64,000 bases of DNA from Rhynchobatus australiae (Eukaryota). Location: the NCBI GenBank assembly GCA_034780895.1, contig JAUZTB010000072.1, positions 17,993,210 through 18,057,209 on the forward strand, written 5' to 3'. A program made the translations under genes and the position numbers. The notes beneath the pieces were generated by a model. It worked only from the letters and a program-made list of their open reading frames with translations, was not told the origin of the DNA and did no database searches. Positions 29,361 to 52,800 of the stretch are shown here, in pieces; the first letter of the stretch is position 1; the number at the start of each line of letters is the position of its first letter.

Positions 29361-29429
29361 ATGCATTGTGGATGTGATGTCAGAGCTTCTCTGTGTGACT
29401 AACCGCTTGTGGTGTGTGGTTGGACCCAG

Positions 29430-30311: not shown

Positions 30312-30493
30312 TTGATCCTCAGTGAGAGTCGGCACCTTCAGGGGAGGGGGCTGATCCCCAGTGAGAGTTGGCACTTTCAGGGGAGGGGGCTGATCCCCAG
30401 TGAGAGTCGGCACCTCCAGGGGAGGGGGCTGATCCCCAGTGAGAGTCGGCACCTCCAGGGGAGGGGGCTGATCCCCAGTGAGAGTCGGCACCT
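30312..30493 (+). repeat. 39-bp minisatellite array 1 (AGTGAGAGTCGGCACCT(T/C)CAGGGGAGGGGGCTGATCCCC)
   Basis: About 4.5 near-identical head-to-tail units running into a 100-N gap. Confidence 0.97.
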
Positions 30494-30750
30494 NNNNNNN
30501 NNNNNNNNNNNNNNNNNNNNNNNNNNNNNNNNNNNNNNNNNNNNNNNNNNNNNNNNNNNNNNNNNNNNNNNNNNNNNNNNNNNNNNNNNNNNNTAGGCTC
30601 AGTAACACCAGCCATGTTCACCCTGACCGGGAGTGTGGAACGTCAGTATAGACCTGCTCCTGGGCAATGTCTACCCACCTTGTGCAGCAAACCTGTACAA
30701 ACAAAACCTCCCACCACCCTGTGAGTGCTGCCCCATCCTGCCAGATTTAC

Positions 30751-30813
30751 CTCATCCTGTGCGACCTGTGCAGTGCGGAAGTCCTCTTCCTGATTCTTTT
30801 GGCTCCTTGATTT
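30751..30813 (-). CDS. CCDC50-like antisense gene, exon D
   Basis: Minus strand ctcttacag|AAATCA...GATGAG|gtaaat; 63 nt, phase 0-0. Encodes KSRSQKNQEEDFRTAQVAQDE, matching the recalled short CCDC50 exon ending DMRAAQVAQDE. Confidence 0.85.
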
Positions 30814-31299
30814 CTGTAAGAGATTTTTCTTGAACTTAAGCTTGAATTTACAAATGAGATACAAACTATTGGCACTGAAAGCAAAGTGCGATACTGTAAC
30901 TAAACCTCTCCCACTTTCCATGACTGACCAGCTCAGGCCCTGAGCATCACTGAGGAAAAGCAGCACTCCCTTTTTCTCTGCACAGTCAAACCTCAGCACA
31001 GGTCAGAGCCCATCTGTGCTTCCTTTAAAGCATAAAAACTTGTTTGCAGAGAACAACTTCCCAAAGCGTATCAAAATTGGAAAATTAGGAAAGGTGAGCA
31101 AATAATCAGATTTAAAGTGGTGGGGGTGGGTTAAAGAACGAGGGAGAGAGAGGCACAGAAGTTCTGGGAGGGATTCCCAGAGCTGGAGCCCAGCCACAGT
31201 CTCGAGCTGTGAAGCAATTCACTGAGGGCCAGGAGGCCAGAGATTTCACAGGGTTGTTTGTCCACTCCTTGGGATAGGGGCCTCCCTAACAATGCTGCA

Positions 31300-32760
31300 T
31301 CCATTGCCCATCCTTAGTATCCCTCTAGAAAGCAGTGGTGAGCCAACTTCTTGAACCGTTGCAGTCCTTCTAGTGAAGGGACTCCAACTGTGCTATTGGA
31401 TAAGGAGTTCCAGGATTTGGACACAGCAATGAAGGAGGACTGGTGCTGAGTGTCCTGCAGAGGAACCTACAAGTGGTGGGGTTTCCTTGTCCTCCTCAAG
31501 TGTCGTGGTTGTGGGTTTGCAATGTGCTGTAATAACAGCAGAGGTGAGTAACTGCAATGCATTCAGTAAACGGTACACACTGCAGCCACGGAATGACGGA
31601 GGTGGAGGGAATGAATGTTTAGGATGGCAAAAAGGGTGCAAATCATACAGGCTGCTTTGTCCTGGCTGGTATAATCCAACTCCAACATCACGCTTCTGCG
31701 CAGCTTGGGGCAAGACCTTGGGAGCACAGGAGATGGGTCACTCACCCATCTGCCCTGCTGCTGTAGCCACACGAGGCTGGTCCAGCTGAGGTTCTGGTCA
31801 ATGGCAACCTGCAGGATGATGAGGGAGGGGACAGTGGTGGTAATACCAGTCAACGTTAAGGGTGAGTGGTTAGATTGTCTGGCACTCTGTGACACAAATG
31901 TTTCTTGCCTCTGGCCGGTTTGCCCTTTGGTACCCACCAGCCTCCATTTTATCAGAGCTCCTCGATGACATACTCAGTCAAGTGCTGCCTTGGCGTCAAG
32001 AGCAGTCACTCTCTCCTCACCTCTGGAATTCAGCCCTCTGGTCCTCGTTCAGACCAAGGCTTTGAGGAGGTTGGGAGCCAAGGCGTCCTGGCAAAACCCA
32101 AACAGGTCATTGGCGAACAGGTCATTGGCGAGTGCTGCTTGGGACAACAGCTTCCCTCACCTTGGTGTGGATGGAGAGAAGACTGATTCAGTGATAATTA
32201 GCAGGAGTGGTCATCCTGCCACTGATGGACAGAGCACACTGGTTCAGGAAATGCTGGTATTGCAACTATACTGGAACAGCTTGGCTGCAGGCACGGCGAG
32301 TCCTAGACTTCCCTACAATGGCTGGCACCCTGTCTCTTCCCATAACCTTCACTGCAACCTGCGCTCTCATGTGGAGTTAACTGAATCGGCTGAAGACTGG
32401 CTTCCACAATGGTGCAGTGGGGATCTCAGGAGAAAGCCAAGACAGATCCCTTCATTGACAAATGCTCAGTTACTGGGCCCCACCATTGCAGAGGATGGGA
32501 AGGTCCTTGGAAGCTCCTCCTGCTCCTCCTACTGGCTGTTTAACTGACCACCACCAGGCGTGGTGAGCCACCACAGGACTGCTAAGCTGCCTGGTGGAGG
32601 TGGCATCACATCCACCGCGTGCCGTTTGGACTGCAGGTGGTCCTGTATTACTGACACCGTGTTGCTACCTCACCCTGGGCTCTGCCTTGCAGCATGCACC
32701 TGCACTCCCTACTGAACTGTTTCTGCCCCTCCGGTACTTGATGCTAGCAGGGCCAGAGGA
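31300..32760 (-). mobile_element. Highly decayed non-LTR retrotransposon (CR1/L2 group)
   Basis: Reverse strand ends in TTCAAGAAG..GCTCACCAC...GGATGGGCAAT, an elasmobranch LINE 3' end; RT-like remnants upstream. Confidence 0.55.
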
Positions 32761-32916
32761 GGGTTGAGGGAACTCTCAGGAAACAGTTAATGACCATGAC
32801 AACAACCCAAGGCTATTTGACAGAGCAGCCCAGCGCCTCATGATTGATGGACCGATCAACAGTGTTAAACCCCGAGCGCTCCAATTGCCCCCACGTACCA
32901 GCTGGACCATCCTCAC

Positions 32917-33059
32917 TTCCTCCTCCTCCTGCAGTAGACGGGCCAATGCCTCGTCCCTCTGGAGCTGCTCCTCATCAGCACTGTAGGAATCTTTGATAGT
33001 CAGCTCTGCAACCTTCCTGTCCAGAGAGCTCCCACCCTGCTCACGCCACAGTCTCTTCC
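32917..33059 (-). CDS. CCDC50-like antisense gene, exon C (MIU-like motif)
   Basis: Minus strand gctaat...ttttgctttttgtcctgaacag| and GAA|gtgagg; 143 nt, phase 1 to 0. Encodes (G)KRLWREQGGSSLDRKVAELTIKDSYSADEEQLQRDEALARLLQEEEE. Confidence 0.85.
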
Positions 33060-33335
33060 CTGTTCAGGACAAAAAGCAAAAATCCAATTAGCCATCATCT
33101 CTCAGACATGCGCGACTTGTGTCAGTGCAGAAGGGCAAAGGATCGCGGGGCACCGAATGAACCCACTCTTCCCTTCACACAAGGGGAGCCCGACTGTTTC
33201 ACTGTGGGGGTATCACAGGTAAAGTCCACCTGTGGGGCATTATGTGGGTGGGAGGTGGAGGAAGAGTCACTGAAGGGTGACTGGGGATGTTTTATTTGCC
33301 AGGTGCTGCCTCCCTCCTGACCGAGNNNNNNNNNN

Positions 33336-33509
33336 ATGTTGGTTGTGCAGCGCTGGGGTTTTCTGTCGGACTGGGAAATGACAGGAATGGTTTCCCGGCT
33401 GGGTGACCACACCGGAAACTCCACTGGTCACTCTCGGGTAGGCATCATGTTGTACGGATGGGCTTGTGCAGACACAATTCCAAGAGCATTGTGAGCCGGA
33501 ACCAAGTTC
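33336..33509 (+). repeat. Inverted repeat arm A (pairs with 34434-34609)
   Basis: About 80% identical over ~175 nt by hand alignment, with two 1-nt gaps. Confidence 0.92.
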
Positions 33510-34276
33510 TGCAGAGCGCCAGTGGTCAGGGTCCTGTTAAGCCCAGCCAGCAGTGGCTCTCATGGTTAGGAGTAGATCTCTGAGTGGGCCCCTGACCCAA
33601 GGAGGCTCCCTTTAAACTACTCACCTCCCATCCCATCTCCCAAATCTTCCCCCTGCCCCACCCATCGCCTTACTGACCCTCACACCCACCAATCATCTGA
33701 TCCAATACCCCAACACCACCCTCACTCCAGCCCGATTCACAAACCCTCCTCCACTGGGTCATTCGAGACCCAGATCCCCGAACACCTGACTTGACCCCAC
33801 CACTGCCACTGATTGCTCACGGCTCACCCCCGCCCTGTTCACACACCCCACACGGTGCAGCGTTTGAAGGAAGGCGGCTTGTTAGAGGACAGCTTGGAAA
33901 GGACAGACACCTTTGTCCGCATTGTGCCACAGAACAAGTAACACCGTCCCTGCAGCGACTGAGGAACCCACCACGAGAGGTGCCAATGAACGCTGGGTGT
34001 TTGTTTTCTTTGCCTACTGCAAGGTAAAGCCCTTTGCTACGTCCAACAGCAGTGGTTATGTAGTTGCCAGACCCATCCCTCTCCAGGGTCCACCTCGTCC
34101 CCCTCCCAACGTAATGTGCTCCACATGAGGGTGTAGGGTGAACGCGTGGTCGTTGGGGAAGACATCAGCCACGTGACTTCAGCTGCAGATGCCTCACGTG
34201 AAATCCAGTTGAAGGCGAGTCCCTGCTCCCTCCATTAAACCAACATCCATCAGCTGGAGAGAGTGCCAAAACTCAC

Positions 34277-34348
34277 CCTTCCCTGGAGAGGTCAGGCTGT
34301 GGGCCTCAAAATGTATAAAGCTCGGTGAGCGATAAATAACACGTTCTA
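34277..34348 (-). CDS. CCDC50-like antisense gene, candidate symmetric cassette exon B
   Basis: Minus strand cattccccag|TAG (NAGNAG) and consensus donor AGG|gtgagt; 72 nt, phase 1-1, open in the required frame: (V)ERVIYRSPSFIHFEAHSLTSPGK(G). No homology support. Confidence 0.5.
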
Positions 34349-34433
34349 CTGGGGAATGATGTTTAGATCACCAGGACAAAGAGAGGTGATGAATTCTTTC
34401 ATTAGGGAATGGGATCCTCGACGTGGAAACATG

Positions 34434-34609
34434 GAACCTGATTCCTGCTAACCACGCTCTCGGAATTGTGTCTGCAGAAGCCCATCCACACAACATGATT
34501 CCTGCCAGGAAGTGACCAGTGCTATTTCCGGAATGGTACAACCCAGCCCAGAAACCGTTCCCGTCACTGCCCAGACCTACAGAAAACCCCAGCACTGCAC
34601 AACCCACGT
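34434..34609 (-). repeat. Inverted repeat arm B (pairs with 33336-33509)
   Basis: Reverse complement GGTTGTGCAGTGCTGGGGTTTTCTGT...ATCATGTTGT..GGATGGGCTT.TGCAGACACAATTCC is shared with arm A. Confidence 0.92.
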
Positions 34610-34829
34610 CCCCAGTCACCCCTCTGCACCTGATGTCCTCCGTGACCATTGATAAAAGCTTTTAACGGAGGTGAGTGCAACAGAAAAGGATTTGAGGAAA
34701 GGTCTGAGGAGGGACTGCAGAACTGGTTCTTGGAGAGTTAGCCCTGCTGCAATGGGCCAAATGGCCTTCCTCCATGCAGTGGCATTCAATGACTTGATCA
34801 GGGGGAAAGTCACCACCTCACCCCCTTCC

Positions 34830-35350
34830 CAGCCACAGGGGGTCAGCTGTAGCTCAGTCACGATTCCAGTTCCATCCATCTGGGGCTGCAGTATTGTGCT
34901 GGGGGAGCCCTGCACTGTCAGTAGTGCCACCTTTGATGAAAGCGTTAAACCCTGGACAAAAAAATAATGCCATGGGATATTTATGAAGAGATTTCTTCAC
35001 CCAGGAGACAGGGAATCTTTGGGTTGTGGAAGCTCAGTTGAGTGTACTCAATGCAGAGGTCGAAAGTTGAATGGATATTACAGAAATCCTGGGGCTTGTG
35101 GAGGGAAGTGGAACTGAGGTAAAAGATCAGTTATGATCTTACTGAATAGTGGAGCAGGCTCGAGGGGCTTCTGTCTCTCTCGTTCTTATACCAGAGCAGA
35201 GACCTTGTTATGTTGCTGCTTGTGGGAGCTTGCTGTACGCAAACTTGTTGCCACATCTCCCTCATTATCACAGGGTTAACATTTAAAGTATTTCATTGGC
35301 TGCAATGTGCTCCAAGGCCGCAGATTGTGAAAGGCGCTATACAAATGCAG
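34830..35350 (+). mobile_element. DeuSINE-like SINE interrupted by a CR1 3' tail (about 34990-35190)
   Basis: CCTGCACTGTCAGTAGTGCCACCTTT-GATGA, then a CR1 TTCTTCACCCAG...GGAGCAGGCTCGAGGGGC segment, then TGTGGGAGCTTGCTGT...GAAAGGCGCTATACAAATGCA. Confidence 0.6.
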
Positions 35351-35368
35351 AGAGGTGACATGGTTTAC

Positions 35369-35474
35369 CCCTCTGCCGGTACGCCTCCTGTCCAGCCCCG
35401 TACACCTCAGCCTCTGGTGTGAGTCTTCCCTGGTTCCTCAGCTCTTCCTCCTCCTGTAACCTTCTGGCCACTTC
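35369..35474 (-). CDS. CCDC50-like antisense gene, exon A
   Basis: Minus strand gactaat branch site, tgtttgtgttgtag| and GGG|gtaaac; 106 nt, phase 0 to 1. Encodes EVARRLQEEEELRNQGRLTPEAEVYGAGQEAYRQR(G); compare the recalled CCDC50 exon starting DIARLLQEKEL. Confidence 0.82.
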
Positions 35475-35751
35475 CTACAACACAAACACATGGGACAAAT
35501 TAGTCACAGCACTGCCCTGAAACACTTCGCCAAAAAAAAAGCCCCTTCGAATTTCTAGACACCAGTATGAAAACCCCATGCACGCTGCAAGGGGCAGTCA
35601 TCACATGAAAACAAAACATGAACTGTGCTTCAGGTCAGGTAGGGAGGGGGCAGGAAACTACAAGGTTGCCCAGTCCAGCCGGGCATTAGTGGCATGGGGA
35701 TGGGGGTCACCTGACAGGGCAGCACACGGAGCTCAACCTCAACATACAGCT

Positions 35752-35927
35752 AGTGAGGGTCGGCACCTAAAGGGGAGGGGGCTGATCCCCAGTGAGAGTC
35801 GGCACCTTCAGGGGAGGGGGCTGATCCCCAGTGAGAGTCGGCACCTTCAGGGGAGGGGGCTGATCCCCAGTGAGAGTCGGCACCTCCAGGGGAGGGGGCT
35901 GATCCCCAGTGAGAGTAGGCACCTTCA
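35752..35927 (+). repeat. 39-bp minisatellite array 2
   Basis: About 4.5 units, same unit and orientation as 30312-30493. Confidence 0.97.
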
Positions 35928-36596
35928 AAAGGCTTGAGAAAGTGAGCCAAGGACAGAGAGAATCTATTCCCATTTCAAGCTGGTGAGTCAGTGAGAGCCA
36001 AAGTGGAAGCATTAAGCCTTGTTCTGGAAGGCTTCCAATTTCTCATGACCTGACTCCTTTTCAGTAGGCGGGGCTGTGGGTATGACATATTTGCCAGAAA
36101 GTTCTTCATTTTCACATTCCCTGTGGAGCAGAAAGCTTGTCTGAGAAGCGGATGTTAGTAGCACCTGGTACGGTCCGAACAATGTCTGCACTCTAGCTTG
36201 GCAGGGCCACACTGCAACCACATGGCATGAGATATCATCATGATCTTATGGCAGGACTATGGAAAGCTAAGCTTCTCTGCATCCTCAGGGGGCTGTTAAA
36301 TACTTTTCACAGATTTCTCACTCTTGCACTGGTTGAAAGTTCCTTTCTTCAGCTTCCACCGTCTTTTGGAATGAATCCCATTTTTTTTTGGAAACCAGTA
36401 ATCCTCGTAATATTTTCTCACTCCATCTCTGCTACTGTTTCTCCGAGATCCTTGAGTGGGCTGCCACACAGTCATCTTGTAAACTTGATAAGCGCAAAAT
36501 TTTTCTTAAACTGTGCAATGTTAAATCAAATGCTTTTGTATTACTTATTTGAACGAAGTCCAAGACAGGGGATTGAAGAGAAGAAGATTTTGCGAC

Positions 36597-36720
36597 AGAG
36601 AGAGAGAGAGAGAGAGGGAGAGGGAGAGGGAGTGGGAGAGAGAGGAAGAGAGAGAGAGAAGCACAGAGGGAGAAACATACAGAAATATACAACAGAGAGA
36701 GAGAGAATAAAACAGGCAGA
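36597..36720. repeat. (GA)n microsatellite / purine tract
   Basis: GAGAGAGA and GAGGGA runs. Confidence 0.9.
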
Positions 36721-38619
36721 AACACTGTGAGATGAAAGTGTGCGTGAAGATGTCTCTTTACCAGCAGTGATAACTCAGCAATGATTTTGTCACTAAATAC
36801 AAAGCAGATTTTACAACAACATTCACAATTTTATTTCCATTTCACTCACTCACCTGCATTAGTTGGTGATGTTAATCTGTGAGAACATCTGCCAGGGATG
36901 AACACCTGAGCCTACCCATCTCTGCCCTTGGTCTGTCAGAGCCATGCCATGTTCTTGATATAGACTCAGCACACAGGACCTCTTGCACAGCTTGGAAACC
37001 AATACTGGAAGCTTCGTCAAGTCCCTCTGTCTGACTGTGGGACAGACCAAGCCCAATGCACAGTTCCACTGCCAGTCCTGGGGTTTTGCATCTGAAGCCA
37101 GGTGAAACCTTTGGCTGCCTTTTTCACAGCCTAAAGCTGCCCCAGAGGAGCTCGAGACTCACGTGAGCTGTTTCAACATGATTAAAGGGTTTCATTGCGT
37201 GATGAGATGGAAGGTATTTCTTCTGATGAGGCTAGAGCAAGGAGCTAAAACCTCAAAATTGGAGCTAGCAGTCACGGTGTTGGTGGGAAGCATTCTTTGA
37301 TGGGGAATATTGGAAATGTGGATCTCTGTTGGGGATGGGTGCAGGGTTTTAGTTGACCATTTCTAAACTAAGGTCAGGAAGGATATTATGGGCTTTGGAA
37401 TGAAACGAGTAGAAAGAGTTAAGATGCAGATCAGCCATGGCACAAATGGATGTCAGAACAAGTTTGAGGGGCTAAATGGTCCCACGATTCCACTGTGGTT
37501 CCAGTGGGTCTGCACCATCTACCGTTGTGGTGGCTACCAGGAATAGGAATACAGATCCTTAGTAGTGACCCCCTGTGGGATACATGGGCCCAGGGACAGA
37601 TGAGCTACATTTTGGGGCTGGAACGCATTGCCCCATTTTCTGAGAGCAATCCATTGGCTCTGTAACTAACATTCCAGGACACTTGGTGATGATGTCAAGC
37701 AACAGGTAAAGACACATCCAACGGCACGATATCACAGCTTCATGATGGCCCATCCAATTCTGGATGGACATATCAGATGTCCCAACTCACTAATGCCTGA
37801 GTTCCTGGCCAGTGGATAAAGAGGCAGGAATCCCACATGACAAGATCCAACCCACACCTGGTTACTTTGACCAGCAGAGCAGCAGATTCCTGGATGGCAG
37901 ATGAAAATATTAGGATGCTATTAAATTTATTGAGAAAAACACTTACAAAAGTCATAGAGATTGTAGCCCTCGGCATCAGTGAAACCACAGTCGGTGATGC
38001 AGGCGGGTAACTTTTCTGTCCTGTCAGTCCAGTGTAGGCAATAATCCCTTAAACTTTTCTGCCGCCTGCTTTCATTCTCTGTCTTCTGTCAGCAGTCAGC
38101 AGTTGTTTGATCGCACTATTTCCAGGGTTACTGGGTGGGCTGTGGGGCTCAGGGGAGTCTTGGAGGGAGTGGGATTGGATTTCATGGAGAATCCCAGGAT
38201 TTCTGGGGGGAGAACCATGTTTGAGGGGAGAGAGAAGAGGAACATGAAGTTTGAGGGTGGGTGAGATGTCATTGGGGTTTGTGGGGTCCAGGCCAGTAAG
38301 AAACAAGATTGTTTCTGTGGGTCAGTTCTGCCACTCTGGGACCAACACAAATAATTCAGCTCTTGTTCTCACCTGGTCTGCATTGCTGGAATTATAGGGT
38401 GGAGTTATAATAGTGTGCGGTCTGCTTTGCATTTAGTGACAAAACCATTTCTGAGTTATCCATCCCAGTAAGAATACATTCTCACTCTGTCTCACATTCT
38501 AAGACACCAGTTACTGTATTAAAGGGCTGGATTTCCTGAAGCTGGAGGACTCTTTGAAGTTTCCTTCTGAAATTCCCCCCATTTACAGCCAGCAAGAGCA
38601 GTGAGAATTGGTTACAGAA

Positions 38620-38930
38620 GCCTTCAGGAACAGTTAGTTTCCTACAGCCATTAGGTTCTTGGACCAACCTGCACAACCCTAATCCTACCTCAGCAACTGA
38701 ACATTATGGACCACATCTTGCACTACCATGGACTTCTCTCTGTGGTTTTGTTTGCACTACAAAGTCTTGCTTATACACAGTCTTTTTTTTCTTCACTGTC
38801 TTGTATAATTTACATTCTATGTGTTGTCTGAACTTATGTGCCTGTGATGCTGCTGCAAGCAAGTTTTTCACTGCACCTGTACCCCTCCGTATTTGTGCAT
38901 GTGACAATAAACTCAATTTGACCACTTGAT
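38620..38930 (+). mobile_element. Rex1/Babar-like LINE 3' end
   Basis: TTCAGGAACAGTTAGTTTCCTACAGCCATTAGGTTCTTG (decayed FRNSFFPTAIR.L) followed by a UTR with AATAAA. Confidence 0.65.
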
Positions 38931-41229
38931 CCTCAGGATTGGGATTAGCTCTGAACCACCCCCCCCACCCCCACCCCCGTGGCTGAAGGGCAACAGGTAT
39001 TGGAAATGAACCAAAACTAGAATTGGGACATGGAGGTTGGCAGTCAAGGCCTTTGGGAGGTAGGCTGAGTATTGGAGACTCGGTCTGTGACAGTCACTAT
39101 GAGGTCTACAGGACCTGGATCAAGGTCTGCAGGAACCATGACTCTGGGAGTCTGTGGGGTTCACATTGTTCTCAACACTTCCAGTTATCACCACTTGCAT
39201 CCAACAGTAGGTGACATTAATGCTCCTGAATGGAAACTCCTTATTGGACCAGGGATTCACCATCGGGAGCCAAGTGGCCACATTTCATTTATTTTATTAG
39301 ATAAGTAGGAAAAGAGAAATGTGTGAATCTTTGTAATTAGAATGTTGGATGATTAGTTGGAGGGAGACGGGCTGCATTTGATGTTTAGTGAGCTGCTATC
39401 AACCCGGTGAGTGTGGAGCGAGGGAATGAGAGAGACGTTTGCTCTCCTTTGATCCACCGCCCCAGGCACACTTCACAACCACTTCCAGTCTGAGTGAGTG
39501 GTTTTCAGTTATTCCTGGCAAGTGTCTGTTGGAGATAAGAACAGAACCCCAGCATTGTACACAACCCATCACACCAGCAGCTGGCCAATCTGTGGAATTA
39601 CAGTAAAATCCATGTCGGGAACAGAGAAGTCCGTATAGGTGCTTCAGAATACTGTAAACACTTCAAGTCAAGTATTTAAAATGTTCTGAAGCACCTGTAC
39701 TGAAGGGTCATTGTGGGATGGAATAAGATGGTTCATCAATTCTTGCCTCTGTCTCTCCTGCTTTTCCTTTGTAAATCTGCCTCTCTTTCTGCCTGGAAGG
39801 TTCAAATTCTGATTACTGTTGTCCCCTACAAGCTCTGCTCTATTGGTACAAACATTCCCTGCATTTAACACTTCCATTTAATTAACACAGTGAGAGGTTT
39901 TGTCAAAGTAAATGCCGTTATAAGAAAACAGCAGTCAGTGGAGCTTCCCCTGTTCATCCCTCAGAATTTCTCAAATCCTGCTTAATGCTCTTTCTCCTTC
40001 TTCCTCTCTCTCTTTCTCTTTCTCTCTTCTTCAACCTCCCTTCTTCCTTCTTTCTTATCTTCCTTCATTCATTCCTGTCTCCCATCATCTCCCTCACTAC
40101 CTCCTTCACTATCTGTCTCTTTCCCTCTCCCTCATTCTTCTTAATCCTCCTTTCTCACCTTCCCTCTCATCCAATCTCCCTCACTTCATCCCTCTCCTCA
40201 TTTCTCTTCTTCCCCTCCAATTGAGCTCCTGCTATCAAGCACTCCCAGAGCCATCGTGTATCTCTCCAAGCACCAAACCCTCTGACACATCATCACCCCT
40301 GTTGTACGAGAAGCATTAGATGTGGTGACAAACAGACAGATATCGAAAGCCTACTCAAGACGGAAAGGTCAATTGGCCGCATGTGCTTTCCGTTAGTTAC
40401 AAATACCAGACTGACAGGGGCGGGCCCTGTAATTAATCCCTGCTCTCCTCCGAGCCCTGGCTCCTTCCTTTTCTCACCCTGTGACTGCAGATGACTCAGT
40501 GAGCCTAAGTGTTAAATTCGCCATTGTTATTCACTATGTTCGGAGGGGCTGTAAGATTATTTGCTCTTTCACAAATCAGGCAAGATCACAAGGAGCACAG
40601 GTGGATGCTGCAATGTCTGTCAGATTCCCTGATTCCAAAAGCATGGATTACTGTAAAATGCCCCACAGATGGAAGTCCTTTGGCCCATCGGACCTTTGCC
40701 AGCTCTTTGCAAACCTATCTGTTCTTCCACTCCTACACTCTCCCCATGCAGTCAAATGCTTCTTTCCCCTTTAAGTATTTATCAAACTCCTTTTGGAAAA
40801 AGCATTGAGTCTCTTCTTCCACTCTTTCAGGCCATGTTTAGTGAGGGCTCAGCAGAAGCAATAAACCAAATCATGTATGAGAGTGACCTTTAGCTCCTAT
40901 CGTACTTTGTAAAAGTAGCTCATTATACACGAGTTGCAAGACACATTCAGTGTAAACATGTGCCAGTGTGAATGGATGTGTGGATGAACTAGTGAGTGGG
41001 AAGATGGAAGATCCTGACTCATACGTTTGTAGTGTATGCATATCTGCATACATTCAGTACTGGGTTATTTTTATATATTTGTGTAATTACGTTTAGGTAC
41101 TCTGAATGAATACGCATATGTTTTATGGAAGTGGGTTTCTATTTTGATGGCTTGCATGCATGTGAATATAAGTGGGCAGGAGTGTTTGAATCTGTGGGGT
41201 CAAGATGTCTGTGTGTGCACATACATCAG

Positions 41230-41900
41230 TGGCCTCAGGGTTAAACTACTGTCCATCCAGAGTAAGGATCCTTAAACCAATGTACATTTTGAGTCAGCAC
41301 TCAGTGTTCAATTCGGTCTCTCAGAAATGGCACCTTTTAATTAAACGGGTTCCCTTTTGTACCCTCGGGGTTAAAAACTTGTCCCCTTAAGGTTAGCGCT
41401 CTCAAGGTTAAACCTGTGTCCATTCAGAATCAGCATTCACTGGGATAAGACTGTGNNNNNNNNNNNNNNNNNNNNNNNNNNNNNNNNNNNNNNNNNNNNN
41501 NNNNNNNNNNNNNNNNNNNNNNNNNNNNNNNNNNNNNNNNNNNNNNNNNNNNNNNATAAGACTGTGGCCAGTCACACTCAGAATTGACCAGGTTAAGTCT
41601 GTGCCCAAGTGGAGTTGACACTATTCTGTTAAATTTGTGCCGACAAGAATCAACACTCAAAAACTTGCCGTGTGTTTAGCCCCTGCCCACTGAGCCAGCA
41701 CTGTAAGGGTTAAATGTGTGTCTAATTATGGCAGCATTCTCAAGATTAAACCTCTGCCCAGTCAGATACAGCAGCCACTGGGTTAAATCCTTGCCCACTG
41801 AGAGTAGACACTCATCGGGTTAAACAGCTGGCACTCTCAGAGTTAAACCCATTCCCACTCAGCGATGGCATTCACTGGGTTAAACCTGTGCCCACTCAGA
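41230..41900. repeat. Degenerate ~37-38-bp minisatellite (GGGTTAAACCTGTGCCCACTCAGAGTCAGCACTCACT-like)
   Basis: GGTTAAA recurs at about 37-38 nt spacing between 41700 and 41890, with related units upstream. Confidence 0.75.
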
Positions 41901-42575: not shown

Positions 42576-42685
42576 AAGGTGCCGACCCTCACTGGGGATC
42601 AGCCCCCTCCCCTGAAGGTGCCGACCCTCTCTGGGGATCAGCCCCCTCCCCTGAAGTTGCCGACTCTCACTGGGAATCAGTCCCC
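42576..42685 (-). repeat. 39-bp minisatellite array 3 (inverted)
   Basis: About 2.8 units of AAGGTGCCGACCCTCACTGGGGATCAGCCCCCTCCCCTG, the reverse complement of the unit in arrays 1 and 2. Confidence 0.95.
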
Positions 42686-48599: not shown

Positions 48600-48890
48600 T
48601 TGTGCGCTAACTCCGTGTGATGTGCCAAAGGGTTAAACAATGTGGTAAGAAATCGGCTTCCATCAGCAAACTGAAATATGAAAGTGAAGGGATTAAATTA
48701 CGTGAAATTAGCTCCATTTGTCAGTCACTCAGACCGTCCTCTAAAGCTGCTACACGGCTTCTCCGTTAATTGCCATCAGGCCTGGTCACAGATTCCATTG
48801 TAATCTGATGTGCAAATTAGCTCCCTGCGAATTGAATTCATTTGTTGTCACATTTAGACCCAGTTTCCAATTGTTTCTTCCCCTTTAAAT
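48600..48890. promoter_or_regulatory. Candidate intronic enhancer / conserved non-coding element
   Basis: Non-repetitive and CpG-retaining; Sox-type AACAATG (48636) and CATTGT, several TAAT cores, AAATTAGCTCC twice (48705, 48814). Conservation not tested. Confidence 0.45.
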
Positions 48891-49899
48891 ACAGCCCCAA
48901 CCCCCACCTCTCTCTTTGAGATATTTGCCCGAAGCAGTCAGTACTAAAAGGAAAAAGAGACTTTTAAACGGCTGGATCTGGTTTTGCGACCAGCGTCCTT
49001 TTCCCTCCGCTCTTTCTGCTTCACTCACACCCTCTTTCCGCACTCGATACAGATTACAGGGGACTGATTGATGGTGTGGAGGGCAGGCATCTGAAGCCTG
49101 GACTATCAGTGCTGCAAACAGCGTCGCCCCAGGCAGCACTGACTGCCCTTGTCGCTCTTTGTACTTTGACTTTCTTTCACGTTTCATTGAAACCACAGAG
49201 GAGACCCGAAAGATCTCGAGAAACCTCGTTTGGATCCAATAAGTCACTCGGCGTAGTCTATTACTTGTGCCCGCAGGGGGTTACCGCGCACTCCTGATGC
49301 AGAGCGTGGAGAGAAAGAGGGAAACACAGAGAGAACTTTAAACCTTAATCGAAATCATTTGCTAACAGTTCCCAATCCTTGCCACCGCGTAGCACTCGGG
49401 AATTACCCCAGAATCCTCCGAATACTAAAACAATTATTGCCGAGATAGAGAGAAAGCGGATGTTAATAACACTCGGGGTAACGTTCCCATTGTATTCCAG
49501 ACCAGTGATAAAGCCTGTTGTTTNNNNNNNNNNNNNNNNNNNNNNNNNNNNNNNNNNNNNNNNNNNNNNNNNNNNNNNNNNCCTCAGCCCATCCTCCGTT
49601 AGCTTAACCGTCAATTCAGAGCCTTGTGGGGTTGTATTCAGGAAATAAATACTGAATTCAGTTCAGAAAACCATCCTGCCTGTCAGCCAGGAAAGTATCA
49701 CAAACACGTCACGGATCACTGGATAATGATGTGGACCAGAAACACTGACTGACTCTTTCCCTTTCTAACCTAGTTGAACCGAGACCAATTGAACCAACTT
49801 TTTACAGCTTCTCAATTATGTCATCTTATGGTTACCTTTCAGTAACGATTGGAATTGCATGAATTCTCACCAAATTATTAGTTGATGGCAAGGACATAG

Positions 49900-52800
49900 A
49901 GAGGGCAGGAACTAAGATTCTATTGTCAGATTTTCTGGAGGCTAGGGAGGGAGTTGAGAAGCAGGAAGGTGGTAATCTCCAGGTTGCGACCAGTGACACC
50001 AGAAGTAGGGAGGTAAGGAGGATCAATGTGCGGCGCAGTGCCATTGGGACAGGTTCTGGGGCAGGAGGCACCTACTCAAGAGGAAGAGGCACCCAACACA
50101 ACTGGGCCACTGTCCTTGTGTGGAGATTTACCAGTGTGGTTTGGAGGGTTTAATCTAAATTGGCAAGGGGATGGGTGGTAGCATTTAGAAGTATTAAGAG
50201 GAATAAGGAGCATGAAGTTGGGAGTGTTGGATAGTTCCAGAGAAGCAAGTAGTACCTTGTTCAATAGGAGCAGACTAAGAAGGACCTAAAGGAACACAAG
50301 GACAGGTTTAGAATGCGTGCATGTAACAGGGCAAGTGCAGGAGATAAGGTCGGTGAGCTGTGTGGGAATATGATGTAATGGCCCTAACAAAAATGTAACT
50401 CAAAAGCGTGAAGACTTGGTGCTTANNNNNNNNNNNNNCAAAGTGTTCAGAAGAGTTGGGGAAGAAAATAAGACGTTGCAGTTAAGGAGGCACTGATTAA
50501 GGAATTAATTGTAGCATTGGAAACAGAGGATGTAATTGAGCAAGCAAGGACAAAATCTCTTTGGATGGTTGAGAAGCAGAAGGGATATGTTTAAGTCACT
50601 GTGAATATTCTATAGGCCACCAAACAGTGAGAGAAAGTCAGAAGATCAAACTTGCAGAGAAAATATCGAGATAAGGAAAAACTATAGTGTGGAGATGTTG
50701 GGGGATTTTAATTGTCTAAATATCAATCAGGACAATGTTAGAAAAAGGAAAGTAGGGAGGAAATTCCAAAATGTGTTCAGGAGAACTTCATTAACCAGTA
50801 TGTACTTGGTCCACATTGGAAGAGGTCATTGCCAGATCTGGGGCTGGGGTCAAAGACAGTTCAAGCACCAGTGGGAGAATACCTGGGGAGGTGTTGAGAT
50901 TAGTGATGGAGAAGGGCAAGGCCAATCTACAGTAGAACTTGGGAGAGGGCAGACTTTCGTGTGGCAGGCTGTCCAGGTAGGGTATAATGGAATCAAAGAT
51001 TAACAGGAAAAACTTTAGAGGAACAAGCTGTGACCTGTAAGGAGGAGATATTGGCTGGGTGCATTCCCACAGGTTGCAAAGGCAGAGGAATCAAGGCCAG
51101 AAATGATGAGAGAGAAAGCAACTACTATGAAACAAGAAAAGAGATTGTACAAATCATAATATGTGAATTCCAAGTGAGAACCAGGCTAAATACATGGAGA
51201 TGTGTAGGGGAGTAAAGAGAGACATAACACCAGCAGAGAGAGAATATAGAGAGTGGCAGGTAACAAAAAATGAAGCAAAGAATCTGCTGTTGGCATGTAA
51301 ATGATGGGTAGCTAGTAAGAAGCAGGATGGGACTTATCAGGGACAAAGAAAGGACAAACATGCTTAGGTAACATGAGATGAGATGTGGGGTGGGGTCCTT
51401 ATATTTGATGTGAAGAGACAAATGGAAAGTAGGTCTAGATGAGACAACAAACAAATTGAATTAGCAGGGAACTAATTTACCCATTGGATTACAATGGAAT
51501 CTGTTTCCAGCCTGACGGTAATTAAGGGAGCACCTTGCATCCAAAACATTCAGCTGCCTGAGAAGCTGATCTGAGTGACCGACAAATGAGCTGCTTTCTG
51601 ATGTTTTGTCTCAAGGTTTACTGAGGAAGAAAATACTGGCAGAACATCAGTGGAAACAGAGATGGTAAAAGTATAGGTGATGCAGAGGAAGTATTGGAAA
51701 GGCTAGCTGTCCTCAGAGTGGATAAGCACCTCAGAGATGCCATGCACCTCAGGTTCCTAAGGGAAGTGAGGGTGCAGATATTGGAAACTTCCGCAATCTT
51801 CTAATCCTTTTTTTAGATACAGGAGATACAGGTGAAGTGCCAGAAGATTGGAAAGTAGCAAACGTGACAATTTTGCTCAAGGAAGGGTGCAAGGACATTC
51901 CTAGAAACTGCAGGCCAGTCAGTTTAACATCTGTGGTGGGGAAGGTTTTAGAAACAGTAATCAGGGAAGAAAGGCACTTGGGGAGATTTGAGTTAATTAA
52001 GAAGCGCTACGATGAATTGTTTGGCGAACCTAATTTGATTGTTGGTAAGGAGTACCAGGGAAGGTTGATGAAGGAAATGCGGTGGATATTGCCTGCATGG
52101 ATTTTAAGAAAAGACTTGACGAAATAGCACATGAAAGGCTGATTAACAGAACTGAGGCTCATTCAATAGAAAAATCACTGTCAACTTGGACAGAAGATAG
52201 TAAGTGTGCTAAGTGGTTGTTTTTAAACTTTAGAATAGTGGTGTTCTCCAAGGCTCAGTGTTAGGACACTGCTTTTTTGATATATCTAAGTTAATTGGAT
52301 ATTGAAATACAAATTAAAATTTGCAGATACACAGTGGTAAGCAGTGAAGATGATACTAATCAACTCCAATAGTTGCCAGCTGGGTTAACAGAATGAGCCA
52401 ACATGTGGTAAGTAGAACTTAATATGGAGAAGTGTGAAATGATGCATGTTGGCAGGAATACTTGGTGGCAATGTGGAGTTAAAGTCGATGAAGGAACAGG
52501 GGCATCTAGAGTTTCATGGGCATCGATCTTTGAAAGTGTCAATAGATACTGAGAGAAGGCTTTGTGAAGTATGTAGGATCTTGGGATCTATCTATTGAGC
52601 ATGAATGCTGCATGTTTATAAAACTTTGGATTGGACACCACTCAAGTATTACATCCATTTCTGGTCAGCAAACTTTAGGGAGGATCTGAAGCCCTTTGAG
52701 ACAGTGAAAAGGAAATTTACTTGAATGGTTCCAGGGATCANNNNNNNNNNNNNNNNNNNNNNNNNNNNNNNNNNNNNNNNNNNNNNNNNAGGTTGAGGAG

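What the first reader, a model, noticed from the sequence alone, without database searches (positions are those of the whole stretch)
33336..34609. ~175-bp inverted repeat looping out a symmetric cassette exon
Seen: 33336-33509 is about 80% identical to the reverse complement of 34434-34609, with a ~920-nt spacer, and I do not recognise the arms as a common repeat. The spacer contains the 72-nt phase 1-1 candidate exon (34277-34348) with a consensus donor and NAGNAG acceptor. Knowledge: paired flanking introns promote exon skipping, back-splicing and ADAR editing, and human CCDC50 has an alternatively skipped exon at the comparable position. Inference: an RNA stem that could control inclusion; it would also form in the Pax7 pre-mRNA. 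An old DNA transposon with long terminal inverted repeats is the alternative.
Basis: partly seen in the sequence, partly recalled or inferred. Interest (0 to 1): 0.7.

Follow-up and report, generated by a model that had tools for sequence, protein, structure and literature searches.

The report
Old inverted duplication in ray intron
Two mirror-image copies of a roughly 190-base stretch sit in an intron of a ray's CCDC50-like gene and could pair in the RNA, but they look like a slowly decaying local duplication, and the small exon proposed between them has no sign of use, although this intron is where other vertebrates keep a long optional exon.

Summary
The inverted repeat is real: 33338-33509 against 34434-34607, 81-83% alike, originally about 190 nt. 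It lies in the intron between two phase-1 exons of a CCDC50-like (PF15295) gene on the minus strand of a ray (closest protein: sawfish).

It is not a common repeat. In contigs of four related species no extra contigs lie on the arms or the spacer at 80% likeness. There is no target-site duplication and no transposase relic. Both arms exist in all four species but decay like the intron around them: 11% against 7.6% divergence, an uncompensated 18-nt deletion in two species, and a young insertion splitting the window's left arm.

The 72-nt exon has good splice signals, but 0 of 38 shark and ray proteins contain it; splicing itself could not be tested.

New here: this junction carries an ancient long cassette exon in many vertebrates (172 aa in sevengill shark). 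This ray has no intact copy, and the candidate's acceptor may be its relic (anchored p about 0.01-0.025; unanchored tests negative). The placement inside Pax7 may be a scaffolding artefact.

Verdict: a real but probably non-functional local inverted duplication.

The parts
33336..33509 (.). left arm of the inverted repeat (3' arm in the CCDC50-like pre-mRNA)
33272..33286 (.). outer stub of the left arm, cut off by an insertion
   Evidence: pair I7; joined directly to the arm in contigs of organisms B and D
33287..33335 (.). insertion particular to the window's species, mostly hidden in a 10-N gap, ATGTT repeated on both sides; probably a young mobile element (inference)
   Evidence: (tables 5, 5c, 8)
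34434..34624 (.). right arm of the inverted repeat (5' arm in the CCDC50-like pre-mRNA); 34580-34597 deleted in organisms D and E
33510..34433 (.). 924-nt spacer; no sign of further copies; frameshifting indels between species; no Pfam family above cut-off in its ORFs
34277..34348 (-). 72-nt (69-nt with the second AG) phase 1-1 candidate exon; use not shown; its acceptor may be the relic start of the ancestral long exon
   Evidence: peptide absent from 38 of 38 homologues and no hit
33828..34016 (-). second phase 1-1 pseudo-exon (189 nt), frame differs by a 1-nt indel at 33945 in organisms D and E
35369..35474 (-). upstream coding exon of the CCDC50-like gene, ends in phase 1
32899..33059 (-). 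downstream coding exon, starts in phase 1; 51 of 53 residues identical to sawfish P0019
30751..30813 (-). next coding exon of the CCDC50-like gene

Best explanation
A local inverted duplication of about 190 nt arose once in this intron, before the window's species split from at least three relatives (shown: both arms in four species). It came from a repair or replication error such as template switching or staggered breaks (inferred; mechanism not resolved). It has decayed since then without visible selection for pairing (partly shown). The arms can still pair in the CCDC50-like pre-mRNA (predicted), which would tend to suppress splice sites in the loop and could attract ADAR as a by-product (inferred). 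The 72-nt candidate is a pseudo-exon, or the unused relic start of the family's long optional exon, and the normal mRNA joins 35369 directly to 33059.
For: Summed contig depth on arms and spacer stays at one contig's value in runs X1, X2, X5 and X12, against about 1000-fold on the repeat at 35100-35189. Left arm versus organism D: 19 of 172 differences (11%), against 177 of 2335 (7.6%) in that run's four other long pieces, p=0.11. An 18-nt deletion (17 of 18 positions paired in the window) and a 1-nt insertion in the right arm of D and E are not mirrored in D's left arm, which aligns without gaps. An insertion splits the window's left arm. Of the 4 displayed right-arm substitutions where B, D and E all differ from the window, 3 pair Watson-Crick with the others' letter and are a mismatch (2) or G-U (1) in the window. 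The sense-strand duplex (-271 kcal/mol) is no better than neutral decay: 176 of 300 simulations are as stable. 35 of 38 chondrichthyan proteins from 22 named species, sawfish included, join the two exons directly; the other 3 carry inserts of 1, 32 and 172 aa, and none is the 24-aa peptide. A second old inverted pair exists in the same window (163 of 206 columns).
Against: G-U-type differences favour the CCDC50-like sense strand 13 to 3 (p=0.021), and the energy gap between strands was reached by only 4 of 300 neutral simulations. However, the G-U share of all 30 differences is not above neutral (p=0.45) and transversions are in excess (14 of 30, p=0.025). One of the 4 displayed substitutions (34607) pairs in the window and not in the relatives. 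The candidate exon is rarer than chance: 0.9% of 1000 spacer shuffles give one under strict rules modelled on it, and 13-23% under looser rules. D and E show no deletion across 34200-34377 (depth table). Only 40 of 239 substitution rows were displayed, none in the left arm or the candidate exon, so covariation and exon conservation are largely untested. Whether the 22 named species have the repeat at all is unknown.
Confidence: 0.6

Rival explanations
1. The repeat removed the ancestral long optional exon. Either the new stem looped it out until it decayed, or the duplication is the scar of a staggered-break inversion that destroyed it. The 69/72-nt candidate is the old acceptor with a cryptic donor.
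For: 21 of the 40 family proteins that passed both flank filters (78 examined) carry 127-466 aa at this junction. The ten looked up by name include frog, newt, bichir, lungfish, coelacanth, sturgeon and bowfin. The sevengill shark long form has 172 aa. The spacer has no stop-free minus-strand frame above 115 codons. Anchored at the candidate's second AG, the window reads E-R like the sevengill exon and aligns better than residue shuffles (5, 5 and 2 of 200), block shuffles (5, 3 and 2 of 200) and other acceptor-like anchors (4, 0 and 2 of 150) under three scoring schemes. The best free alignment in the intron starts at the same codon. Staggered breaks leave non-repetitive inverted duplications at inversion ends (PMC1885836, abstract).
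Against: Unanchored tests are null: 133 of 200 shuffles, 37 of 60 and 144 of 300 score as well. A seven-sequence profile has no hit in this intron among its top 25. The second AG was chosen after I saw the E-R match, which carries part of the score. The inverted orientation scores as chance (9 and 10 of 40). No long form is annotated in any of 9 named batoid species, so the loss may predate the repeat. The spacer has the same orientation in all four species.
Confidence: 0.15
2. One reading: a selected long-range stem regulates inclusion or back-splicing of a live 72-nt exon, possibly with A-to-I editing.
For: Predicted duplex with 155 paired bases and a 26-bp longest helix on the sense strand. 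Strand bias of G-U pairs. The candidate is the only strict phase 1-1 candidate on either strand of the window. Its acceptor lies 86 nt inside the right arm. The repeat is kept in four species. Precedent: PMC8330042 (abstract), PMC7404189 (passages).
Against: No arm conservation, uncompensated indels and an insertion inside the arm. Peptide absent from 38 of 38 homologues. No protein hit for the candidate's reading frame among 7 candidates (weak evidence by the tool's own note). The local fold around the exon is unremarkable (z 0.22).
Confidence: 0.12
3. The unit is a very old DNA transposon or MITE with long terminal inverted repeats, whose family has decayed below detection.
For: The anatomy fits: long inverted ends around about 0.9 kb of non-coding DNA. 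Copies under 80% alike would be invisible.
Against: No extra contigs on arms or spacer in four genomes, although that call laid 1365-1997 pieces under 90% alike per run elsewhere on the stretch. The best flanking direct repeat within 12 nt of the ends is a 6-mer that lies inside the arm itself; no clean target-site duplication. No transposase family in 21 ORFs of arms and spacer.
Confidence: 0.12

Closest known systems
Reverse-complementary matches in flanking introns that promote exon skipping and back-splicing (zip-2 in C. elegans, PMC8330042; looping-out, PMC7404189)
   Same: Complementary intronic arms on both sides of an exon-like sequence, able to pair in the pre-mRNA.
   Different: The zip-2 match is 13 nt, conserved across five nematodes and tied to observed skipped and circular RNAs. 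Here the arms are about 190 nt and not conserved above background, and no exon use is shown.
Inverted Alu/SINE pairs in introns
   Same: A long, roughly 80% complementary duplex within about 1 kb, a plausible by-product substrate for ADAR (recalled knowledge).
   Different: The arms are not a dispersed repeat family at 80% likeness.
Inverted duplications of non-repetitive sequence from staggered breaks or template switching (PMC1885836 abstract; PMC7954356 search listing only)
   Same: Two locus-specific inverted copies flanking a unique segment.
   Different: No inversion of the spacer is shown; there was no outgroup DNA to orient it.
Human CCDC50 exon 6 (V1 306 aa, V2 482 aa; the exon-6 region binds JNK2; PMC7718278 passages)
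   Same: Optional insert at about residue 147-150 of a CCDC50_N protein; the paralog has long and short forms in several vertebrates.
   Different: This is a paralog. The real optional exon is 127-466 aa while the candidate is 24 aa. Homology of the paralog's long exon to human exon 6 rests on position only; I did not align the human sequence.

Membership tests
TIR DNA transposon / MITE | terminal inverted repeats | tested here: met
TIR DNA transposon / MITE | target-site duplication flanking the ends | tested here: not met
   no clean flanking direct repeat within 12 nt of either end; age could have erased one
TIR DNA transposon / MITE | further copies in the genome | tested here: not met
   no extra contigs on arms or spacer in four runs at 80% likeness; more distant copies not visible
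TIR DNA transposon / MITE | transposase relic or autonomous partner | tested here: not met
   no such Pfam family in 21 ORFs; a partner elsewhere is not testable without the genome
Inverted SINE/LINE pair | arms belong to a dispersed retroelement family | tested here: not met
   depth flat on the arms, about 1000-fold on 35100-35189; no Rfam match in the window
Selected long-range RNA stem regulating splicing | stable predicted pairing in the pre-mRNA | tested here: met
Selected long-range RNA stem regulating splicing | arms conserved above intronic background | tested here: not met
   left arm 11% versus 7.6%; one species comparison, right arm not separately countable
Selected long-range RNA stem regulating splicing | compensatory changes | tested here: inconclusive
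   none among 40 displayed of 239 rows, no left-arm rows displayed; uncompensated indels seen
Selected long-range RNA stem regulating splicing | enclosed exon observed both included and skipped; back-splice reads or editing | not testable with these tools
   needs RNA reads of this or a close species; protein collections show only the direct join
Cassette exon (72 nt) | splice signals and frame-preserving open frame | tested here: met
Cassette exon (72 nt) | present in annotated isoforms of relatives | tested here: not met
   0 of 38 proteins; no hit
Relic of the family's long optional exon | detectable homology to an intact long exon | tested here: inconclusive
   anchored p about 0.01-0.025; unanchored and profile tests null; intact long exons barely detect each other
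Staggered-break inversion scar | spacer inverted and a single arm copy in an outgroup | not testable with these tools
   no outgroup DNA; same orientation in the four species laid
CCDC50 family host gene | exons match proteins with CCDC50_N (PF15295) | tested here: met
   the exons that encode most of the domain are not in the window

The most novel reading that the evidence does not exclude
A locus-specific inverted duplication fixed the skipping of an ancient, vertebrate-wide long optional exon of the CCDC50 paralog in this ray lineage. The exon then decayed inside the loop, leaving its acceptor and a cryptic donor as a 69/72-nt mini-exon that may still be included at low level. This would be a datable natural case of exon loss, or exon shrinkage, caused by RNA structure.
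Probability: 0.12. Interest if true: 0.6.

Novelty: new member of a known kind. Interest (0 to 1): 0.25.

Why it matters
On the best reading it matters little: a non-repetitive intronic inverted duplication of a known kind, useful mainly as a lineage marker and as a caution that a strong predicted stem around an exon-like sequence is not a regulatory switch. If the novel case holds, it would show a new RNA duplex silencing and erasing an old alternative exon, testable with existing ray and shark assemblies. A by-product of the work is that the CCDC50 paralog keeps a long optional exon in many jawed vertebrates but shows it in only 1 of 22 named shark and ray species here.

Tried and rejected
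No whole genome is held for this window, so copy number rests on run contigs. No RNA holder was listed; this says nothing about expression. Run X2 has no contig on 34278-34344, which is not used as evidence, since the run has other holes. The piece of X12 record 9 laid on the right arm with '2 other letters' is its left arm; I read the low count as an artefact of counting each place once per record (its depth fills the 18-nt deletion), not as 99% identity. Rfam: 0 matches in the window. An arm pattern in metagenome contigs: 0 matches. Earlier findings: nothing. The sevengill long exon as query found only itself among 1374 candidates. Homology of the spacer to the long exon by plain, frameshift-aware local, free glocal and profile alignment was null; a test with both ends chosen after the fact gave 1 of 40 and is discounted. 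The 189-nt second candidate exon is rejected because its frame differs in D and E. The 32-aa insert of P0008 is taken as a gene-prediction artefact: part of it weakly matches a repetitive stretch at 34694-34780 (inference). Literature searches for this paralog or locus (12 of 137 listed, 10 of 49 listed) showed no relevant title; I saw listings only. PMC7304168 is retracted and was not used.

Full report
Observation. The repeat is in the sequence as stated: 33338-33509 and 34434-34607 are reverse complements at 81% over 174 nt (E 2e-40 within the window), with 142 of 172 aligned columns identical and 924 nt between them. A further 19-nt pair lies outside (I7). Contigs of organisms B and D run straight from that stub into the arm, so the original repeat was about 190 nt, and 33287-33335 is an insertion in the window's species, with ATGTT at both ends. 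The 72-nt candidate has a tandem CAG|TAG acceptor, an AGG|gtgagt donor and an open phase 1-1 frame.

Host gene. Three minus-strand exons (35369-35474, 32899-33059, 30751-30813) match shark and ray proteins that carry CCDC50_N. The closest is sawfish (51 of 53 and 31 of 35 residues), so the window is probably from a rhinopristiform ray (inference). They lie between two Pax7-like exons on the plus strand (ORFs at 29399 and 61947; the Pax7 name rests on motifs I recalled). The N-terminal 111 and C-terminal 160 residues of the sawfish protein find nothing in the window. The block holding the three exons is bounded by 100-N gaps at 30494 and 41456, the first next to a 39-nt tandem repeat that recurs inside the block at 96%. 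The nesting in Pax7 may therefore be a scaffolding error, or the missing exons may lie in gaps. This is unresolved, and so is the claim that the stem forms in Pax7 RNA.

Copy number. No genome is held. I laid the contigs of 4 of the 13 listed runs (organisms A, B, D, E) on 32850-35520 at 80% likeness. Summed depth over both arms and the spacer stays at about one contig's value, while 35100-35189 collects about a thousand times more. The tool warns that contig depth is not a copy number; I use it only to say that no further contigs were laid there. Most pieces laid were under 90% alike, so a family at the arms' own divergence should have left traces. With no clean target-site duplication and no transposase family in 21 ORFs, a transposon is unlikely, though not excluded below 80%.

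Selection on pairing. Both arms are present in all four species, in the same orientation. The arms differ at 17% of columns while the window and organism D differ at 7.6% elsewhere, so the duplication predates that split. D's left arm differs from the window's at 19 of 172 sites, no fewer than background (p=0.11). D and E lack 18 nt of the right arm whose partners pair at 17 of 18 positions in the window, and have a 1-nt insertion there; D's left arm aligns without gaps, so neither is compensated. Of four displayed right-arm sites where B, D and E share another letter, three pair better with that letter and one pairs better in the window. Only 40 of 239 substitution rows were displayed, none in the left arm or the candidate exon, so covariation is mostly untested. 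The one signal for function is a strand bias: G-U-type differences number 13 on the CCDC50-like sense strand and 3 on the other (p=0.021), and the energy gap between strands was matched by 4 of 300 neutral simulations. But the sense duplex itself (-271 kcal/mol) is average for neutral decay (176 of 300), the G-U share is not raised (p=0.45), and true mismatches are not depleted. A second old inverted pair in the window shows that such pairs are not unique here.

The 72-nt exon. It is the only candidate in the window under strict rules modelled on it (0.9% of 1000 spacer shuffles), but 13-23% of shuffles give one under looser rules. Of 38 chondrichthyan proteins (15 hits plus the members of 10 of their clusters; 22 named species, 9 of them batoids), 35 join the flanking exons directly, and the other three have inserts of 1, 32 and 172 aa; none has this peptide. 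A search with its reading frame found nothing among 7 candidates, which is weak evidence. It is unknown whether those species carry the repeat. Inclusion, back-splicing and editing could not be tested.

The ancestral long exon. In this paralog, the sevengill shark has a 172-aa insert at exactly this junction. Among 78 family proteins examined, 40 passed both flank filters and 21 of these carry 127-466 aa there; lungfish and coelacanth each have a long and a short form. The ray's spacer has no frame of that size and has frameshifting indels between species, so the long exon is not intact here. Whether the spacer is its relic is open. Anchored at the candidate's second AG, the alignment to the sevengill exon beats shuffles at p about 0.01-0.025 in three scoring schemes, and the best free alignment starts at the same codon. 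Every unanchored or profile test is null, I chose the second AG after seeing the first two residues match, and intact long exons barely detect one another. No batoid annotation shows a long form, so its loss may be older than the repeat.

How it most likely works. Shown: a locus-specific inverted duplication shared by four species, with uncompensated damage. Predicted: the arms can pair in the pre-mRNA. Inferred: origin by a repair or replication error; any looping-out or editing is a by-product; the mRNA uses the direct junction. Confidence 0.6. Rivals: the repeat caused loss of the long exon (0.15), a selected stem regulates a live 72-nt exon (0.12), an old transposon (0.12).

Literature seen. 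PMC7718278 and PMC7404189: passages found by term. PMC8330042 and PMC1885836: abstract and section list. PMC7954356: search listing only. Two searches for this paralog or locus (12 of 137 and 10 of 49 papers listed) showed no relevant title; I read none of those papers and no supplements, and the library lacks most subscription journals. ADAR's liking for long imperfect duplexes is recalled knowledge.

Verdict. A real feature of a known kind, probably without selected function. Interest 0.25. The most novel reading not excluded is structure-driven loss or shrinkage of an ancient alternative exon (probability 0.12, interest 0.6 if true).

Noticed in passing
window 48704-48912 and 51380-51598: A second old inverted pair (163 of 206 aligned columns identical, about 2.5 kb apart) in the same Pax7 intron; the right copy lies in what looks by eye like a degenerate LINE stretch. 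Copy number not tested.
   Followed up: partly
window 30594-41455: The block with three CCDC50-like exons is bounded by 100-N gaps and lacks the gene's other exons; possible mis-scaffolding into the Pax7 intron. The same 11 letters stand on both sides of the gap at 41456-41555.
   Followed up: partly
window 30313-30493, 35752-35927, 42576-42685: A dispersed 39-nt tandem repeat, copies over 90% alike; a Narcine gene model (P0003) contains a similar repeat translated as a false N-terminus.
   Followed up: no
window 33287-33335: Young insertion in the left arm, absent in organisms B and D, with a 5-nt flanking duplication; its true length is hidden by the gap.
   Followed up: partly
window 35090-35240: Very high-copy repeat in all four runs, probably a SINE (the class is my guess).
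   Followed up: no
window 33265-33282: A 6-bp hairpin at the outer end of the left arm, also possible in organism D; could be a trace of fold-back priming, or chance.
   Followed up: no
window 39630-39703: A 74-nt imperfect palindrome (78%).
   Followed up: no
proteins P0014, P0040-P0079: The CCDC50 paralog, named CCDC187, CCDC50-like, ccdc50b or trichohyalin-like by different sources, keeps a long, fast-evolving optional insert in many vertebrates but shows it in only 1 of 22 named shark and ray species.
   Followed up: partly
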